Assembly (NCBI GenBank): GCA_951406725.2
Contig: OX597821.1
Coordinates: forward strand, 61,814,001 to 61,878,000
Source of the DNA: Octopus vulgaris
Lineage: Eukaryota
Direction of reading: 5' to 3'
Length of the DNA: 64,000 nucleotides
Both the position numbers and the translations under genes were made by a program. Below, piece after piece: positions 10,323 through 62,869 of this stretch (its first letter is position 1; each line of letters starts with the position of its first letter). A model generated the notes under the pieces. It was not told the origin of the DNA. It did not search any database and saw nothing but the letters and a program-made list of their open reading frames with translations.

Positions 10323-12392
<2,070 letters not shown>

Positions 12393-15949: not shown

Positions 15950-16200
15950 CATATCATTGACGTGGCTCCAAGTTTGAGCAGGAAACATTATTACTTTTGT
16001 AATCTGCAGTGTGCGGAAATCCCGTGCTTCGGATAAGTGGTGAAAATAATGGTCTCTTGTGTTGAAGTACGTGGCAACATTTTTGCATCGTAGCGTGCAT
16101 CGAATGTCCATTATCAGGAAGACGGCCTGTGTTGCTTCCTCGAAATAAATAATTGCCAAGAAGCTTTGAGATAAAGCAATATAGAAGGTCCGAAAAGATG
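15950..16200 (-). pseudogene. Possible highly decayed mariner transposase remnant
   Basis: The reverse complement gives DNG..H, VATYFNTR and ...cgggatttccgcacactgcagattac, reminiscent of HDNA.H...HPPYSPDLAPADY across frameshifts. Confidence 0.35.
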
Positions 16201-16309
16201 CAAAATAAATTCTGGTGAATGTAGTCCTGTGACCTAGGCTCGGTGATGGTTATATAATTTTGTTAATGTAGGGTCAAGATTTATTTATACATATATATAT
16301 ATGTATAAA

Positions 16310-17341
16310 ATATATAAAATAAAAATTCCCCAAAACAAAAATATAGCATTCAGCCAACACATAGATACTTGCGCCAACAACAAAACATCAAGCTTCAGGA
16401 TTTTCCCCCTATATCAATTCAGGGACGATACAACCTCGAGACAACGAATAAGTAAAGAAACTCTCTTTATTACAAAATGCAGGCCACTTCTTAACGGATC
16501 TACGACAAGCGATATATACACCTCAGCTTTAGAATAACACAAATACACACGCAAATATTACATTCCAAAGAATCCATTACAAATCAGCCCCAATCACAGC
16601 TATAACCCATAACGGGCCAACTTCAAGTCATACAACACCTCACTACTTCATTCATATTCTCCCTTCTCTTTCTTCTTCTTCCTCTTCTTCATCATCATCA
16701 TTATCATCATCAACATCGTCATCATCTTCTTCTTCTTCTTCTTCTCTTCTTCTTCTTCTTCTTCTTCTTCTTCTCCTTCTCCTTCTCCTTCTCCTTCTTC
16801 TTCTTCTTCATCATCATCATCAACATCGTCATCATCATCATCGTCATCATCACCTTCTTCTTCTTCTTCTTCTTCTTCTTCTTCTTCTGCTCCACCTTCT
16901 AATTCTTAACTTAATCACTAATGCTTTTTAGTATAACACCTACGCAAATTCTATAAACAAACCTTTCAATAGAAATATTCTCATGAATTGAACTGCAACT
17001 GCTAGCCGCCACTGACCATTCAAAATACGACAATCAAGGCACTCCCAAATTTTCCCACCCCTTCTCCTATCATCCGTCTTCTTCTTCTACCCTACCAAGA
17101 ATTCACAACGACCTCGAACCCACAAGTGTAAACAAGAGAGACAGAGAAAGGCAGAAACAAGGAAATGCCACTTATATTTGAACACTATATAAATATTCCT
17201 TTAAAAACACTTTCCTTTTAATTTTTCTAAAGTTAATTAATTAATCGGTACAGTTGAAAAGGTCTCAAAATGACCGAAACCGGTATTGAAATGTTATTTA
17301 TAAAATTATTTTAGCATTTTCTATCTTGACTTGTATTTTCA
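16310..17341 (+). mobile_element. Penelope-like element 3' part (GIY-YIG C-terminus, 3' UTR, terminal HHR)
   Basis: ORF 16301-16537 KIPQNKNIAFSQHIDTC..FRIFPLYQ..RISKETLFITKCRPLLN resembles the PLE endonuclease end (H...R..KE..FI...P.LN). HHR motif at 17251. The element ends in (TA)n. Confidence 0.7.
17251..17288 (+). ncRNA. Minimal type I hammerhead ribozyme, U3-A8 core variant
   Basis: cag TTGAAAA ggtc-tcaaaat-gacc GAAAC cg GTA ttg: 4-bp helix II, palindromic helix III ACCGGT, helix I cag/ttg (ctg in the 47864 copy). Confidence 0.65.
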
Positions 17342-22048: not shown

Positions 22049-23293
22049 TTAGGTTGAGTAAAAAGTAAGCAACGTTTTGAGCCATAAAGAATTTGTACCG
22101 GATTTTTGCAGATGTTTGAATTTAAAAAAAAACAACAAAATTTTGCAATTGTCATACATAGACTTGCCGAAATACATAAATAAAACAACATTGATATTTT
22201 CTCACCGCTGTTACAATCATCTGAAATAGAACTGCCAAAGCAATTTTGTATTCAACTTCAAAAAAGGATGTAAAGCATCTGAAACTGCTCGTAATATCAA
22301 CGAAACATTGACCTGTAAGTGGTCAGCTCAAAAATGGTTTAAATGATTTCGAAGTGGAGACCTGAACCTTGAAGATCGTGAGCGTAGTGGATGCCCATCT
22401 GGCATTGATGACGGTCAATTAAAGACCATCATTGAGAAAGATCCACGTAAAACCACTCGAGAACTGGCAATAGTAATTCAAGCCAGAAAACTGCCTGCAA
22501 CCATTTTCATGCGATTGGAAAATCAAAAAAGCTCAACAAATGTGTACCACACGATTTGAAAGATAATCAGAAAATGCGCAGATATGAAATTTGCTCTTCA
22601 CTTCTTCTCCACAGATAGACAGATCCATTTCGTGACCATATTGTAACTTGTGATTGAAACTGGATTCTGTAGAATAATAATAAAACGTTCTTCGCAGTGG
22701 TTGGACCAAAATCAAGCACCGAAAACCTTCTTGAAACCCGAGCTCTTTAAAAAGAAGTTTATGGTGACTGTTCGGTGGTGTACTGCTAGACTCATCCACT
22801 ATAACTTCTTAAAAGCCGGAAAAACCATCACTACAGAAAAGTATTGCCATGAAATTGCTGAAATAAACGAGAAACTGCTACTCACCCGTTCTACACTGGT
22901 CAACAGAGGAGGGCCAATCATACTCCATGACGATGCTCGACTACACGTTTACCTAATGACTCTCCAGAAGTTGAGGGAACTTGGTTACGAAGGTATTCTT
23001 CTCCCAGCTTATTCTCCAGACCTTTCTCCTACCGACTACCACCTATTCAATACCTTGATGGTTTCTTGCGAGAGAAGTCGTTCAATAATCAAACCAATAT
23101 TGAAAGTGCGTTCAAAGAGTTAATTAGCTCCAGAACTTCAGATTTTTATGTTGCTGGAGTAAACAAACATGTAACGCGTTGGCAAAAATGTGTTGATTGT
23201 AATAGTACATCCTTTGATGAATAAAATTTCCGCATTGTTGAAACACACTGAATTCTATGTTTCAAAACGTTGCTTACTTTTTATTCAGCCTAA
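22049..23293 (+). mobile_element. Full-length decayed mariner transposon, cecropia/Hsmar1-like
   Basis: TIRs ttaggttgagtaaaaagtaagcaacgttttga / tcaaaacgttgcttactttttattcagcctaa, TA on both sides, 1245 bp. Transposase remnants CVPHDL, ILHDDARLH, PAYSPDLSPTDYHLF with stops and frameshifts. Confidence 0.93.
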
Positions 23294-23299
23294 TACATA

Positions 23300-24056
23300 C
23301 ATGGTGCTGTGAATTAACTGGCGTCTAAACTAGGCAAAAATAAAAATATCACTGACGTCGCATTTTCCAAACGCATTACCAAAATTACATAAAATCTTGA
23401 AAAACTAAAGTGTAAATACATTCAATAAAATCGACATTGGCTTCAACCACGGCCTCCAGACTAGTTCGAAATCTGCTGCAACACTTCTGGACCGTCTCCT
23501 CGTTTAAGTTGGCGAATGTAGCCATAATCCTTGTCTTCAATTCATCTTTGGTGTTATAAGGTGTTTTATGGTCTCTCGCTCAACTACGCTCCACACATAA
23601 TAATCAAAGGGGTTGCAGTCTGGGGAATTAGGTAGCCAGATGTTAGGGGTGATGTGGTCGCAGAAATTATCTGAGAGCCTTGACTGGGTTCTCCTGCTTG
23701 TGTGACTTTGTGTAGAGTCCTGTTTCCAGAAATAGGGTCTTCCAGCAGCCACCCTTTTGATCCAGGGCAGCATTACCTCCTCCAGGCACTTGATGTGGAT
23801 CTCTGTGTTGTACGTCCTCAGACTGACATCTAAACACTCTGAAATATTCGTATTGGAGATTCCGGTGCGAATGTGAAGAAGTACAGCATGTCGTTTACAA
23901 ATTTCTGGCAGACTGAATCGAGTCATTGTGGTGTTTTTCACAGAGATGGTGTTCAACTGACGATACGATATTGTGTTGTCGACAAAATAAACAAAAAACA
24001 ATGCGCATGCACAAAATAAAAATATGTAATGGCGACAATTTACCCATCGTACCCCG
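23300..24056 (-). mobile_element. Internally deleted Tc1/mariner element, maT/DD37D-like
   Basis: ORF 23537-24067 has KQDSTQSHTSRRTQ..WLPNSPDCNPFDYYVW. The N-terminal HTH is joined directly to the late catalytic domain. Degenerate TIRs catggtgctgtgaattaactggcg / cgacaatttacccatcgtaccccg with TA flanks. Confidence 0.8.
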
Positions 24057-24076
24057 TACACACACATCTTTTGAAT

Positions 24077-24213
24077 AGGCGTAGGAGTGGGTGTGTGGTA
24101 AGAACTTGTTTTTCAGTCACTTGGTTCTGGGTTCAATCCCACTGCATTGCACCTTGAGCCGACCAAACCTTGAGAGTTGGACTTTGGTAGACGGAAAGTG
24201 AATGAAGTCCGTC

Positions 24214-27076: not shown

Positions 27077-27340
27077 TTTTACTATTTCACTCTTTTATTT
27101 GTTCCAATAATTTGATTGTGGCTATGCTAGAGCACTGCCTTCAGTCGAAAAAAATGGACCCACGATTTATTCTTTGTAAACCTAGTACTTATTCTATCGG
27201 ACTAAGTTACGGGGATGTAAACACACCGGCATCGGTTGGCAAGCGATGTTGGAGGGGACAAACATAGACACACAAACATATACATACAGACCAAACCCTT
27301 GTGAGTGGATTTGGTAGACGGAAACTGAAAGAAACTCGTC

Positions 27341-27386
<46 letters not shown>

Positions 27387-27548
27387 GACGAGTTTCTTTC
27401 AGTTTCCGTCTACCAAATCCACTCACAAGGGTTTGGTCTGCCCGAGGCTATAGTAGAAGAAAATTGCTCAAGGTGCCACGCAGTGGGAATGTACCCGGAA
27501 CCATGAGGTTGGTAAGGAAGCTACTTAACACACTGCCACACCTGCGAC
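27075..27548 (-). mobile_element. SINE family B with an internal perfect fold-back duplication
   Basis: Family B reverse complement. 27287-27341 is an exact inverted copy of 27386-27440 across (TA)n. Confidence 0.88.
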
Positions 27549-35212: not shown

Positions 35213-35372
35213 ATTATATATATATATATATATTCTCTCCCAATTTCGCAGTGTGTGTATGTGCATAAATAAATGTATTTACGGTAATGTATCCCATTGC
35301 TTAGGTTCATTAATATATGTTTTGATGAACGTCAGATCTGATAACAAGATTGCTTTACACCATTCAAGGCCT

Positions 35373-38282
35373 CAGAGATCAAAGAGGGTTGCCGACAGAG
35401 ATCAAAGAGGGGTGCCGACAGAGATCAAAGAAGGTGTCGACAGAGATCGACGGGGTGCCGACAGAGATTAAAGAGGGTGCAGACAGAGATCAAAGGGGTG
35501 CCGACAGAGATCAAAGAGGGGTGCCGACAGAGATCAAAGGAGGTCCCGACAGAAATCAAAGAGGGGTGCCGACAGAGATCAAAGGGGGTGCCGACAGAGA
35601 TCAAAGAGGGGTGCTGACAGGTGAAAAAGGGTGCCGACAGGGATCAAAGTGGGTGCCGACAGAGATCAAAGAGGGGTGCTAACAAAGATCAAAGGGGGTG
35701 CCGACAGAGATCAAAGAGGGGTGTCGACAGAGATCAAAGAGGGGTGCCGACAGAGATCAAAGGGGGTGCCGACAGAGATCAAAGAGGGGTGCCGACAGAG
35801 ATCAAAGAGGGGTGCCGACAGGAATCAAAGAGGGTGCCGACAGAGATCAAAGAGGGGTGCCGACAGAGATCAAAGAGGGGTGCCGACAGAGATCAAAGAA
35901 GGTGTCGACAGAGATCGACGGGGTGCCGACAGAGATTAAAGAGGGTGCAGACAGAGATCAAAGGGGTGCCGACAGAGATCAAAGAGGGGTGCCGACAGAG
36001 ATCAAAGGAGGTCCCGACAGAAATCAAAGAGGGGTGCCGACAGAGATCAAAGGGGGTGCCGACAGAGATCAAAGAGGGGTGCTGACAGGTTAAAAAGGGT
36101 GCCGACAGGGATCAAAGTGGGTGCCGACAGAGATCAAAGAGGGGTGCTAACAAAGATCAAAGGGGGTGCCGACAGAGATCAAAGAGGGGTGTGGACAGAG
36201 ATCAAAGAGGGGTGCCGACAGAGATCAAAGGGGGTGCCGACAGAGATCAAAGAGGGGTGCCGACAGCAATCAAAGAGTGTGCCGACAGAGATCAAAGAGG
36301 GGTGCCGACATAGATCAAAGAGGGTGCCGACAGAGATCAAAGAGGGGTGCCGACAGAGATCAAAGAGGGGTGCCGACAGAGATCAAAGAAGGTGTCGACA
36401 GAGATCGACGGGGTGCCGACAGAGATTAAAGAGGGTGCAGACAGAGATCAAAGGGGTGCCGACAGAGATCAAAGAGGGGTGCCGACAGAGATCAAAGGAG
36501 GTCCCGACAGAAATCAAAGAGGGGTGCCGACAGAGATCAAAGGGAGTGCCGACAGAGATCAAAGAGGGGTGCTGACAGGTTAAAAAGGGTGCCGACAGGG
36601 ATCAAAGTGGGTGCCGACAGAGATCAAAGAGGGGTGCTAACAAAGATCAAAGGGGGTGCCGACAGAGATCAAAGAGGGGTGTCGACAGAGATCAAAGAGG
36701 GGTGCCGACAGAGATCAAAGGGGGTGCCGACAGAGATCAAAGAGGGGTGCCGACAGCAATCAAAGAGGGTGCCGACAGAGATCAAAGAGGGGTGCCGACA
36801 TAGATCAAAGAGGGGTGCCGACAGGAATCAAAGAGGGTGCCGACAGAGATCAAAGAGGGGTGCCGACAGAGATCAAAGAGGGGTACCGACAGAGATCAAA
36901 GAGGGGTGCCGACAGAGATCAAAGAGAGGTGCCGACATAGATCAAAGGGGATGCACAGAGATCAAAGGGGTGCTGACAGAGATCAAAGGGGGTGCCGACA
37001 GAGATCAAAGAGGGTGCCGACAGAGATCAAAGGGGGTGCCGACAGAGATCAAAGGGGGTGCCGACAGAGACCAAAGAGGGTGCCGACAGAGATCAAAGGG
37101 GGTGCCGACAGAGATCAAAGAGGTGTGCTGACAGAGGTTAAAAAGGGTGCCGACAGAGATCAAAGAGGGATGCCGACAGAGATCAAAGAGGGGTGTCGAC
37201 AGAGATCAAAGAGGGATGCACAGAGATCAAAGGGGGTGCCGACAGAGATCAAAGGCGGTGCCTACAGAGATCAAAGAGGGGTGGCGAAAGAGATCAAAGA
37301 GGGGTACCGATAGAGATCAAAGAAGGGTGCTGACAAGGATCAAAGAGGGTGCCGACAGAGATCAATGGGGTGCCGACAGAGATCAAAGGGTGGTGCCGAC
37401 AGAGATCAAAGGGTGGTGCCGACAGAGATCAAAGGGGGTTCCGACAGAGATCAAAGAGGGGTGCAGACAGAGATCAAAGAGGTGTGCCGAGAGAGACCAA
37501 AGGGTTGCCGAAAGAGATCAAAGAGGGGTGCCGACAGAGATCAAAGGAGGTACCGACAGAGATCAAAGGGGATGCCGACATAGATCAAAGAGAGGTGCCG
37601 ACTGAGATCAAAGAGGGGTGCCGACAGAGATCAAAGGGGGTGCCGACAGAGATCAAAGACGGGTACCGACAGAGATCAAAGAGGGATGCCGACAGAGATC
37701 AAAGAGGGGTGCCGACAGAGATCAAAGGGGGTGCCGACAGAGATCAAAGACGGGTACCGACAGAGATCAAAGAGGGATGCCGACAGAGATCAAAGAGGGG
37801 TGTCGACAGAGATCAAAGAGGGATGCACAGAGATCAAAGGGTGTGCCGACAGGGATCAAAGGGGGTGCCGACAGAGATCAAAGAGGGGTGCCGAAAGAGA
37901 TCAAAGAGGGGTGCCGATAGAGATCAAAGAAGGGTGCCGACAAGGATCAAAGAGGGTGCTGACAGAGATCAATGGGGTGCCGACAGAGATCAAAGGGGGG
38001 TGCCGACAGAGATCAAAGGGGGGTGCCGACAGAGATCAAAGGGGGTTCAGACAGAGATCAAAGAGGGGTGCAGACAGAGATCAAAGAGGTGTGCCGAGAG
38101 AGACCAAAGGGTTGCCGAAAGAGATCAAAGAGGGGTGCCGACAGAGATCAAAGGAGGTACCGACAGAGATCAAAGGGGATGCCGACATAGATCAAAGAGA
38201 GGTGTCGACAGATATCAAAGGGGGTGTCGACAGAGATCAAAGAGTGTGCCGAAAAAGATCAAAGATGGTGCCGAAAGAGATC
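35373..38282. repeat. 21-22-bp tandem satellite (gccgacagagatcaaagaggggt) with higher-order repeats
   Basis: About 2.9 kb of contiguous monomers. Variant landmarks recur at 35445/35913/36403 (468 and 490 bp) and 37365/37972 (607 bp). Confidence 0.97.
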
Positions 38283-38434
38283 TTCCCTGACAAACCCGAG
38301 CAACGCCGGGCGATACTGCTAGTAAATAACAAAATCGGATTTAATGTGGAAAATTATTTCGATACACAACATTTAAAAATTTAGACGTAATTTCAAAATC
38401 TCGCAATATGTGACTGCAACAGAGAAGACCCTAC

Positions 38435-47547: not shown

Positions 47548-47710
47548 CAGGAGTGGGTGTGTGTTAAGTAGCTTGCTTACGAACCACATTGTTCCGGGTT
47601 CACAGTCCCACTTCGTGGCACCTTGGGCAAGTGTCTTCTACTATAGCCTCAGGCCGACCATAGCCTTGTGAGTGGATTTGGTTGACAGAAACTGAATGAA
47701 GCCCGTCGTA

Positions 47711-47783
<73 letters not shown>

Positions 47784-47928
47784 ATAAGGATGAAAAGGAA
47801 CACACGAGTTGATATATTTGGAAAAACAAGTCAAGATAGAAAATGCTAAAATAATTTTATGAACTGAAATGTTCTTTATAAAATACTTAATAAAATTATT
47901 TTAGCATTTTCTATCTTGACCTGGTTTT

Positions 47929-48022
<94 letters not shown>

Positions 48023-48228
48023 AGGTGTGTGTAAGTGTGTGTGTGTGTGCGTATGTTTGTGTGTCTGTATTTGGCCCCCAACATCGCTTGACAACCGATG
48101 CTGGTGTGTTTACGTCCCCGCAACTTAGCGGTTCGGCAAAGAGGCAGATAGAATAAGTACTAGGCGTACAAAGAATAAGTCCTGGGGTCGATTTCTTCGA
48201 CTAAAGTAAACGTAAAGAGTAAAAGAGA
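47548..48228 (+). mobile_element. SINE family B interrupted in its microsatellite by PLE-end fold-back
   Basis: Head 47548-47708 and tail 48050-48228 are separated by (TA)/(TG) tracts and the 47820-47930 inverted repeat. Confidence 0.88.
47820..47930. mobile_element. Fold-back (41-bp arms) of the 16310-17341 PLE terminus
   Basis: 47864-47930 matches 17286-17340. 47820-47860 is an inverted copy of 47890-47930 with 2 mismatches. Confidence 0.85.
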
Positions 48229-48502
48229 AATCATTATCATTAAGAATATGATAATCAGAGAATCTCATACTGTGCTCAGAATGCTGCCACTTATATTTGA
48301 TATTTTTTTAAAGAACAATATTGTGATTTTGATATGAGAAATTATCTATAAGCTAACTGTACATATGAGTTGCTATTTTACCGTGAAGGATTGTAACATC
48401 ATGTGCTTCATAATCTTGTGTTTAAACCTTTTCTAAATATCACACTCACAAATACAAATAAATATTAAAACCTATAATTGCATAAATAAGAATTAATTTG
48501 TT

Positions 48503-51449: not shown

Positions 51450-53000
51450 ATCCTGATTCACAATTCCTCCGTCTAAGCAGGCTCTGTAGTGACGACCATG
51501 ACTTTCAGCCTCAGTTTCAATTCATGTCTGGCCACTTCATCCTACGTAGATATCTCCTCATCACTATCCACACCACCCTTACCAGACACGTTCCTGGGAC
51601 CGTGCGTCTGCTCTCTCCCCCGCACCCACCCCGCTGTCTCCTGTCTCCCTTTTCCCTTCATCTACCACATCATCTCCTACCTCTCCAACGCGCCATTCTC
51701 CGAGACTTCCGGCGACTCCATTCCGACCACTCCACTTCGCACATCATCGCTAACTTACCCCATCTCATCCTTCAAACGAGCCCACGACCTACTAGACCCC
51801 TTGATCCACAGCTTCTTCCCTAATCTATCCTCCCAACCCGGATCGTTCCCCTATTCCCGCCCACGCTGCCGCACTTGCCCTTACCTCTCCAACACCACGC
51901 TCCTCACCGGCACCCATTATCGACCCTATCACATCACTGACTTCTTCACCTGTACCTCTACCGATGTCATCTACTACATCTACTGTTATCTCTTCCCTTC
52001 TCTATACATCGGGCAAACGGGACGCCACATCTCAGACCGGTTCGCGGAATAACTCCGAAACACCCCTGCCTTGCACCATTTCCACTCTACCAGTCACTCT
52101 GTGATTGGATTGTCCTTGCACAGGGGCCATCCGGACTACCGTTTGTGCCGTGAACAGGGATTATTCTTCTCTCTTCGCACGTTTGCGACATATGGCCTCA
52201 AATCTCCTCCCTTCTTCATCTAACCTCCTCTTTTCCCACCCTAGACCTAATTCTTTCCACTCACCTCTCCTCTCTTGCTCCGACTCCTACTTCATCTCTT
52301 CACACCTATATTCCTCTCTTCTCTTCTCTTCTCTTCAATCTTACCCACATTCTCCCTTTCCCCTTCATCGTCACCCTTCCCTCGTAACCCGACCCCTACA
52401 CAATCCCACCCCATCCCTTACACCCACTCCGACATGCCCCACTTCTACCGCACCTCTACCCCACCTTCAGCCTACCCACATACGCCCCCTCTACACTCAC
52501 CCTCAGCCTAAACTACAGTCACCCTTGATTTTCCCACTCACGCCTCCCCCACCTCGCAATACCATCACAACACACTACAAACCACTACCCCATACATTAC
52601 ATTATATCCCATCACACAACCACCCACAGACTAGTACTGACCACTTCCCAGACCCACATAAACACTCCGACACATACACACACGTCAAGGTAACCAGCTC
52701 TATCCCACACGCACATACATACTCTCTTATACATACCCACGCGCACCTATGTTTTGAGATCACAACTACTTTATTATCTCCCCTTCTTTCTAGATCTCCT
52801 GTGTGACCCCTCTGTCCGGCATTCGTCATCGTCGATCGCTACACATTCTTTATTTTCTTTCCTTGTTTCTTTTTGTGTTCCGTTCTGTGGAAGAGCATAG
52901 GCACGAAACGTTAAAGACTTCCTCACTTCCCGAGCGTTAAACTAATACATCTGTTTTTTGTGTGCACCACCTGTCTTCGTGTTTTTTGTGAATTCTTCCT
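51450..53000 (+). mobile_element. 5'-truncated Penelope-like element (RT thumb, GIY-YIG endonuclease, C-rich 3' UTR)
   Basis: [53 protein letters not shown]. Frameshifted. Both ends lie in (TA)n. Confidence 0.92.
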
Positions 53001-62037: not shown

Positions 62038-62869
62038 GTTCCACACCAACTCTCCTGTCTTTAAAAAAATGTGGGTCTTAGAAATCTCCTTCTTAGAAAC
62101 TTCACAGCTCCCAGCTCCGCAAAACCAGGAATCTTTAAATGTTCTCGCCGACGATGTAACACATGCCCCTACATCAACAATATTATCACCATCACGGGGT
62201 CCAATAAGCAATATCATATAATACACCACTACTGGTGCAATTTGGCCAATCTCATATTGCATTGCATGCAAAGTCTGCGATGCGCTTTACATTGGAGAAA
62301 CAGGACGGCGTCTTGGGTATCGTATTCGCTAACACATCAGAATGATAACGCTTCGTATGCCAGGCCGACCTGTCGCCACACGCTTCAACACTTTGAATCA
62401 TTCTATTGCATATTTATCAGTGTGTGGTATGGCATTGCACTACGGATCCCCCTTCTTCAGGAAACGAAAAAGCAACATCTCATATTTGATCTTGGTATTA
62501 TGTCCACAAAAAGGTATGAATTAACGTTTTTCCTTTCATCCTTTTACCTCCTCTTAATTCGTCTTTACCCTTTTTAATCCTCCTTCCACACTCTCTCTGC
62601 GACATTCTCGTATTAACTTACCTCTACTCTCTCCATCTTTTTCCTCCTCCTATCTGCACGCCATCTCCTATAACTTCTGTTTCACATCAGCAGCCCGCGT
62701 TATTCTGCGATCATTATGAGTTGCTGGCAGTTTTTCAAGCTGGGAGGATGTAAACTCTGCTTGACTTTATTCTCCTTTTCTTCTCTTTCAATGCTTTCTG
62801 ATGAATGATTGAATCCGAAACGTTGTATATTCCACTCCTCATAGCAAGTTCATTTCTTTCCATATTTTT
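62036..62869 (+). mobile_element. 5'-truncated Penelope-like element (GIY-YIG, 3' UTR with HHR motif)
   Basis: PGIFKCSRRRCNTCPY, ANLIYCIACKVCDALYIGETGRRLGYR (other frame). ctgatgaatgattgaatccgaaacgtt at 62798-62824. Confidence 0.9.

What the first reader, a model, noticed from the sequence alone, without database searches (positions are those of the whole stretch)
47820..47930. Retro-copy whose 5' end falls at the predicted hammerhead cleavage site, capped by an inverted copy of its own 3' end
Seen: the PLE end at 17251-17341 reads GAAACcgGTA|ttgaaatgttatttataaaa...cttgac. The copy at 47864-47930 begins ctgaaatgttctttataaaa, within 3 nt of the GUA cleavage point. Its ctg restores perfect helix I pairing with cag. 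Upstream is a 41-bp inverted copy of its 3' part. Inference: the inserted cDNA came from a ribozyme-cleaved RNA, which is fossil evidence that this HHR family was active and defines the template end. The inversion would record second-strand priming or a template switch.
Basis: partly seen in the sequence, partly recalled or inferred. Interest (0 to 1): 0.7.

Follow-up and report, generated by a model that had tools for sequence, protein, structure and literature searches.

The report
Tiny two-armed Penelope retrotransposon insertion
This is a real 144-base head-to-head insertion of the end of a Penelope-like jumping gene, one arm of which starts within one base of the predicted cut site of the element's self-cutting RNA motif, but the two-armed layout is already known for these elements and one such junction does not show that the RNA was cut there.

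Summary
The forward copy (47864-47930) starts within 1 nt of the predicted hammerhead scissile bond (17285|17286 in the longer window copy), and a 41-bp inverted arm (39 of 41 complementary) abuts it. The C of 'ctg' restores nothing: it is the family base (at least 99% of laid depth in 4 of 4 runs), and the longer copy is the mutant. The family ribozyme appears to be a U3-A8 core variant. The unit is larger than reported. The inverted arm carries a 33-nt extension that looks like the optional Penelope 'tail', and the whole 144 bp sits in a doubled (TA)n(TG)n tract. That is the known Penelope layout in miniature, most likely made by two reverse-transcription runs primed on opposite strands. Whether ribozyme cleavage set the breakpoint is unresolved. 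Chance gives 10-16% for arms this short. Public contigs showed no breakpoint peak at the cut site, but that test had low sensitivity. Published work on one Penelope-like element found cleavage dispensable in vitro. I put the cleaved-template reading at about 0.3.

The parts
47787..47930 (.). Whole miniature Penelope-like insertion unit (144 bp): two arms, head to head
   Evidence: lies between two (TA)n(TG)n tracts inside a host repeat whose 7 other two-half pairings in the window lack it
47787..47819 (-). 33-nt extension of the inverted arm, likely the optional Penelope 'tail'
   Evidence: Length fits the 30-40 bp tail (PMC8557442); no other good window match; agrees in register with the X7 loose-end consensus behind 17332 at 15 of 24 positions beyond the shared six letters (table 7, compared by eye; binomial 0.001-0.02)
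47820..47860 (-). Inverted arm, 41 bp, copy of the element's 3' end
   Evidence: 39 of 41 complementary to 47890-47930; at both mismatches it agrees with the copy at 17300-17341; hairpin z -13.6
47861..47864 (.). Junction 'gaac': either filler plus the first base after the cut, or the inverted arm running on to G17293 with a 3-nt gap and a 1-nt microhomology
47864..47930 (+). Forward copy from the predicted scissile bond to the element's 3' end, with 12 extra nt at 47878-47889
   Evidence: C47864 and C47874 are family bases at 17286 and 17296 (table 3)
47709..47786 (+). Left (TA)21(TG)12 tract; likely one half of a target-site duplication
47931..48054 (+). Right (TA)20(TG)21 tract and degenerate TG run; likely the other half of the duplication
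47560..47708 (+). Left half of the interspersed host repeat (SINE-like; label recalled, not from a call)
   Evidence: 9 other window hits at 80-90% identity
48055..48206 (+). Right half of the host repeat
   Evidence: 7 other window hits at 77-90% identity
16310..17341 (+). Longer 5'-truncated copy of the same family (reference copy): end of ORF, 3' UTR, hammerhead and 3' end, between (TA)n tracts; the 5' boundary is approximate
16316..16495 (+). C-terminal 60 aa of a GIY-YIG endonuclease of a Penelope-like ORF
   Evidence: 35 relatives at E<=0.001, best 2.8e-11; 5 of 5 relatives scanned carry PF01541, and the 745-aa P0025 also carries RVT_1 upstream
17246..17293 (+). Type I hammerhead motif with U3-A8 core, 4-bp helix II and palindromic one-pair helix III; predicted cut between 17285 and 17286
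   Evidence: family bases T17248 and C17286 give Watson-Crick pairs in helix I

Best explanation
The locus is a 144-bp, doubly 5'-truncated, head-to-head insertion of the 3' end of an endonuclease-bearing Penelope-like retrotransposon, likely made by two target-primed reverse-transcription runs on opposite DNA strands that both stopped early at the 3' strand of the ribozyme's helix I and were then likely end-joined. Shown: the two arms, their ends, the one-sided 33-nt extension, the doubled microsatellite, and family membership by homology. Inferred: the endonuclease nicked both strands at TA steps of a (TA)n(TG)n tract; one run began at the element's usual 3' end (right arm) and the other about 33 nt further out (left arm, with tail); the cDNAs stopped at 17285-17287 and at 17293-17300; they were joined through at most 1 nt of microhomology; and fill-in duplicated the tract. 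I judge ordinary early termination, possibly helped by the folded helix, somewhat more likely than run-off from a ribozyme-cut RNA end.
For: An inverted 5'-truncated partner, a one-sided 30-40 bp tail and (TA)n targets are the described Penelope layout (PMC8557442; PMC3846280). In vitro a Penelope-like protein cleaves and extends both strands and starts at two sites that bracket the tail (PMC11167929). The left arm has 33 nt absent from the right arm and lacks the right arm's two substitutions and 12-nt insert, so it is unlikely to be a copy of the right arm's cDNA. Both ends abut TA. The compound tract is doubled here and in none of 7 other host-repeat pairings. Chance of either arm ending within 1 nt of the cut is 16% (L=70) or 9.5% (L=100). 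No place where a fifth of contig depth begins, and no loose-end cluster at the cut among displayed rows. Ribozyme mutants did not change the insertion product, and no RNA-seq reads ended at the cut site, in the one element tested.
Against: Both arms end within 14 nt of the cut, on its 3' side, which is what a cleaved template predicts; the joint chance (cut within 1 nt, other arm within 12 nt) is 5% at L=70, 1.7% at L=100 and 0.13% at L=300. The family conserves helix I pairing, so the ribozyme fold was probably under selection. The tail assignment rests on a blurred consensus (agreement 0.56) in 1 of 4 runs. Two substitutions on one arm can be post-insertion decay. The target-site duplication cannot be sized in a microsatellite. 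The contig test was insensitive: it did not show this locus's own junction.
Confidence: 0.55

Rival explanations
1. Cleaved-template model: the hammerhead cut the RNA at 17285|17286, leaving only about 55 nt (or about 88 with the tail) upstream of the start sites. Both reverse-transcription runs ran off that end, and one cDNA was trimmed by 7-14 nt before joining.
For: Breakpoint within 1 nt of the scissile bond and the second arm within 14 nt on the 3' side. The family has C at 17286 in at least 99% of depth in 4 of 4 runs, with an extended helix I. A Penelope-like hammerhead does cleave when the element's protein is present (PMC11167929). R2 elements are a precedent for ribozyme cut sites shaping 5' junctions (PMC3774820 abstract).
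Against: One junction, picked because it coincides, and ambiguous by 1 nt. No peak at the site among 24 of 603 displayed loose-end rows (low sensitivity). U3-A8 core and a one-pair helix III; minimal hammerheads cleave poorly and probably as dimers (PMC4209133). The window copy's best fold is not the hammerhead. Uncut RNA was the dominant substrate in vitro.
Confidence: 0.3
2. Fold-back or template-switch model: one cDNA (or an antisense RNA) folded back through a C-G pair closing a 6-nt loop and copied itself, giving a hairpin intermediate that was resolved so that only one arm kept the tail.
For: The junction is a near-perfect hairpin with a 6-nt loop. Palindromes at inverted junctions have been read as self-priming (PMC3846280), and the tail as endonuclease-mediated resolution (PMC8557442).
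Against: A copy of the target-anchored right cDNA cannot supply the 33-nt extension. The left arm skips the right arm's 12-nt insert and has neither of its two substitutions.
Confidence: 0.12
3. Sequencing or assembly artefact (fold-back chimera), or a DNA-level inverted duplication with no retrotransposition.
For: This junction was not among the joints displayed from public contigs. Another host-repeat copy at 27277-27440 carries an inverted piece across (TA)22.
Against: The arms differ at 2 of 41 sites and by a 33-nt extension that resembles family sequence. The geometry is head to head around a unique loop, not tail to tail around (TA)n.
Confidence: 0.03

Closest known systems
Endonuclease-positive Penelope-like insertion units with an inverted 5'-truncated arm and a tail (e.g. 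Pen2a_Av, PMC3846280; Fig. 2 legend of PMC8557442)
   Same: Head-to-head inverted arm, palindromic junction, a 30-40 bp extension at one end only, (TA)n target, hammerhead near the 3' end of the family.
   Different: Extreme miniature: 144 bp, with no ORF, no pseudo-LTR tandem and no ribozyme left; the forward arm starts at the predicted scissile bond.
PAc, Poseidon element of the green anole (PMC11167929)
   Same: Two reverse-transcription start sites bracketing a tail; both strands nicked and extended; a hammerhead a short way upstream of the start sites.
   Different: PAc has a C3-G8 core overlapping the ORF start, and no RNA ends were seen at its cut site. The family here has U3-A8, and its relatives carry a Zn-finger linker before the endonuclease (Neptune-like by eye).
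U3-A8 minimal hammerheads of Schistosoma Cercyon elements (PMC4209133)
   Same: Same core covariation, type I topology, in a Penelope-like element.
   Different: Here helix II is 4 bp with no bulged base after the core, and a palindromic one-pair helix III is present. Different host.
R2 HDV-like ribozyme-defined 5' junctions (PMC3774820)
   Same: [quoted passage not shown]
   Different: In R2 the ribozyme is at the 5' end of the full element and the link was tested. Here it is near the 3' end and the link rests on one copy.
L1 twin priming (PMC2837659, search listing only; original model recalled)
   Same: Both target nicks prime cDNA, and the products are joined by microhomology.
   Different: L1 arms cover different parts of the RNA. 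Here both cover the same 3' end, giving an inverted repeat.

Membership tests
Endonuclease-positive Penelope-like elements | ORF with reverse transcriptase and C-terminal GIY-YIG endonuclease | tested here: met
   By homology, for the longer copy only: 16316-16495 matches the C-terminus of 35 proteins, incl. P0025 with RVT_1 and PF01541. The fragment itself has no Pfam hit. The short copy is non-coding.
Endonuclease-positive Penelope-like elements | Type I hammerhead near the 3' end | tested here: met
   Descriptor hit at 17254, 1 in the window against 0.1 per shuffle; the layout matches entries of File S2 of PMC8557442. Rfam is below threshold.
Endonuclease-positive Penelope-like elements | Inverted 5'-truncated copy next to the 5' end | tested here: met
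   47820-47860
Endonuclease-positive Penelope-like elements | Optional 30-40 bp tail at one end | tested here: met
   33 nt at 47787-47819; 15 of 24 register matches, incl. 4 of 4 C/G letters, to a loose-end consensus in 1 of 4 runs. Moderate support.
Endonuclease-positive Penelope-like elements | Insertion bias for (TA)n | tested here: met
   Both window copies end at (TA)n; the loose-end consensus behind 17332 is TA-rich in X1 and X3.
Endonuclease-positive Penelope-like elements | Pseudo-LTR partial tandem in full-length copies | not testable with these tools
   No full-length copy in the window; no genome held.
Neptune clade | CX2-5CxxC linker, CCHH motif and RT phylogeny | tested here: inconclusive
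   Cysteine motifs are visible in relatives, but the window fragment is truncated and no tree was built. Its hammerhead differs from that of Hydra-1_Obim.
Active hammerhead ribozyme | Self-cleavage at the NUH site | not testable with these tools
   Core is U3-A8; activity needs an assay.
Ribozyme-defined 5' junction (R2-like) | Excess of genomic 5' breakpoints at the cut site | tested here: inconclusive
   no begin/end site, no loose-end row at 17285-17287 among 24 of 603 shown, no strand-change joint. Depth ratio 17296/17286 was 0.21, 1.99, 1.80 and 0.88 in the four runs.
Non-LTR retrozymes | Tandem units each holding a type I hammerhead | tested here: not met
   One hammerhead in the window, none in the short copy, no tandem.

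The most novel reading that the evidence does not exclude
The family's U3-A8 hammerhead cut its RNA in the germ line while bound by the element's protein. The cut RNA, with only about 55-88 nt upstream of the two start sites, yields a distinct class of two-armed mini-insertions that begin at the scissile bond: a genomic record of Penelope hammerhead activity in vivo, which would imply that full-length copies need uncut or circularised RNA.
Probability: 0.3. Interest if true: 0.62.

Novelty: new member of a known kind. Interest (0 to 1): 0.27.

Why it matters
The role of hammerheads in Penelope-like elements is described as unclear (PMC8557442), and the one biochemical study I read found cleavage dispensable and saw no RNA ends at the cut site (PMC11167929). 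A high-copy family with the cut site only about 55 nt from its 3' end is a good substrate for a cheap genome-wide breakpoint test. This single copy does not settle the question. It does offer a compact natural example consistent with two start sites being used on opposite strands in one insertion.

Tried and rejected
No whole genome was available, so the breakpoint histogram could not be built directly. Exact scans for the 31-nt core gave 0 loci in metagenome, prokaryote-genome and viral contigs. Earlier-finding look-ups by sequence and place were empty. No RNA holder was listed on record in the run search; this is no evidence on expression. Summed contig depth was rejected as a measure of copy number or of a step at the cut site: the four runs disagree, and X1 and X2 were read only 76% and 80%. 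Skip joints landing at 17269-17310 were rejected as breakpoints: most have unknown or family-like letters between (tables 5, 5c). A word-index protein search found 0 of 10 candidates significant; the full HMMER search succeeded. Pfam on 4 window fragments gave 0 hits. My first view that the core was degenerate was dropped once no substitution row appeared at 17254 or 17259. A Hydra-1_Obim identity was rejected. The 31-mer was absent from the one supplement file of PMC13282606. A supplement search of PMC11167929 gave no hit in 3 short text files; its Fig. S2 could not be seen and may bear on the cut-site claim. A search for activity data on U3-A8 cores listed nothing usable.

Full report
Observation. 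The stated sequences are present. A 31-nt core occurs three times in the window, at 17300(+), 47830-47860(-) and 47890(+), with no match in 100 shuffles; self-BLAST finds no further copy. The inverted arm 47820-47860 pairs with 47890-47930 at 39 of 41 positions, and the strand folds at z = -13.6. No genome is held. The microsatellite-rich sequence and its host repeat look octopus-like to me; that label is recalled and comes from no call.

The family. The copy ending at 17341 extends upstream to about 16310. Its frame 16316-16495 matches the C-terminus of 35 proteins, best E 2.8e-11. All 5 relatives scanned carry GIY-YIG, and the 745-aa P0025 also has a reverse-transcriptase domain upstream. 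It is therefore a 5'-truncated Penelope-like element with a C-terminal endonuclease, Neptune-like by eye only. Twenty of 24 listed public runs, from four coded organisms, hold part of it. Laying four runs placed 3448, 4027, 3554 and 1401 contigs on 353 bases, most of them 90-99% alike, so it is a high-copy family.

The ribozyme. A relaxed type I descriptor finds one hit in the window, at 17254, against 0.1 per shuffle. Rfam gives nothing at gathering level and HH9 at E 0.26. The predicted cut is 17285|17286. In the contigs, 17286 is C in at least 99% of depth in 4 of 4 runs and 17248 is T in 97-100%. Both make Watson-Crick pairs in helix I, which then has 3 pairs, one A-A mismatch and 4 more pairs (positions). 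So the window's long copy is the decayed one, and the short copy's C is simply the family base. No substitution row appears at 17254 or 17259 among the 40 best-supported of 88 rows, and a divergent subfamily's loose-end consensus shows the same core. The family core is therefore most likely U3-A8, a covariant reported in Schistosoma elements (PMC4209133). Activity is untested; the window copy's best fold is not the hammerhead.

Anatomy of the locus. The insertion lies in the internal microsatellite of a two-part host repeat. In 7 other pairings of the two halves in the window the compound (TA)n(TG)n tract is not doubled; here (TA)21(TG)12 and (TA)20(TG)21 flank the insert. This fixes the unit at 47787-47930 and suggests a target duplication. 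The unit includes 33 nt (47787-47819) that continue the inverted arm. Read on the minus strand they agree in register with the X7 loose-end consensus behind 17332 at 15 of 24 positions, including all 4 C/G letters (compared by eye; binomial 0.001-0.02). The other three runs' consensus lines are A/T-rich and do not show it. I read the 33 nt as the optional 30-40 bp tail, with moderate confidence. The forward copy runs 47864-47930 with 12 extra nt not listed among family indels. Its match to the family starts at 47864 (= 17286) and extends to 47863 (= A17285). C47864 can also be the last base of the inverted arm, since gaac/gttc closes a 6-nt loop. The breakpoint is thus 17285-17287. The inverted arm stops at 17300, 17297 or, allowing a 3-nt gap, 17293, the outer pair of helix I.

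Mechanism. An inverted truncated arm, a one-sided tail and (TA)n targets are the described Penelope layout (PMC8557442; PMC3846280). A purified Penelope-like protein nicks and extends both strands and starts at two sites that bracket the tail (PMC11167929). The left arm has the tail and lacks the right arm's two substitutions and insert, so it was probably templated independently rather than by fold-back of the right cDNA. I infer two target-primed runs from opposite nicks, joined head to head. Self-priming, proposed for such palindromic junctions, remains a minor rival.

Did cleavage set the breakpoint? For: the forward arm starts at the bond and the other arm stops 7-14 nt on its 3' side; the joint chance is 5% for L=70, 1.7% for L=100 and 0.13% for L=300. 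Against: either arm lands within 1 nt by chance in 16% (L=70), 9.5% (L=100), 2.5% (L=300) or 0.7% (L=1030) of draws, and this junction was chosen for coinciding. On contigs there was no place where a fifth of depth begins, no loose-end row at 17285-17287 among 24 of 603 shown, and no strand-change joint among 11 listed, while the 3' end did show as a cluster of 52, 59, 49 and 32 contigs. That test is weak: it did not display this locus's own junction, and depth ratios across the site disagree between runs (0.21, 1.99, 1.80, 0.88). In the anole element, ribozyme mutants did not change the insertion product and no reads ended at the cut site. Unchecked earlier notes from other genomes report only mild or no preference for the cut site; these are leads, not support. 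I put the cleaved template at about 0.3.

Novelty. The architecture is known. Searches listed no paper reporting Penelope 5' breakpoints at the hammerhead cut site, within an open-access library that lacks most subscription papers. R2 is the precedent for ribozyme-shaped junctions. Papers seen: PMC11167929, parts 1-2 of 4 and a supplement search; PMC8557442, passages, section 11, supplement parts 1-2 of 59 and searches; PMC3846280, passages and Discussion; PMC4209133, parts 1-2 of 4; bioRxiv 10.64898/2026.07.22.740005, part 1 of 5; PMC3774820, abstract and outline; PMC7229834, passages; PMC13282606, passages and a supplement search; PMC2837659, listing only.

Verdict. A real but ordinary miniature two-armed Penelope-like insertion, with a suggestive and unproven coincidence at the ribozyme cut site. 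Interest 0.27; about 0.6 if a genome-wide peak at the bond is found.

Noticed in passing
window 17254-17260: The family hammerhead core appears to be the U3-A8 covariant across three coded organisms, in a high-copy family.
   Followed up: partly
window 27277-27440: Another copy of the host repeat holds an inverted piece of its own left half across (TA)22, tail to tail.
   Followed up: no
window 48285-48300 and 17166-17181: Exact 16-nt match (E 0.024), 350 bp downstream of the short copy; probably chance.
   Followed up: no
window 15950-16260(-), 51480-52050(+), 62065-62575(+): Decayed frames that look by eye like endonuclease ends of other Penelope-like elements; no Pfam hit, and no hammerhead descriptor hit near them.
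   Followed up: partly
window 16650-16890 and about 17077: Long (CTT)n/(CAT)n tracts inside the element's 3' UTR; the loose-end consensus before 17077 is also CTT-rich in 3 runs, so the tract there seems a variable family feature.
   Followed up: no
window 35300-38300: A 3-kb minisatellite of 22-23-nt units with long open frames.
   Followed up: no
window 11056-12226; 22647-24112: A LINE-like remnant interrupted by a long (GAA)n run, and two mariner-like transposase remnants (labels by eye).
   Followed up: no
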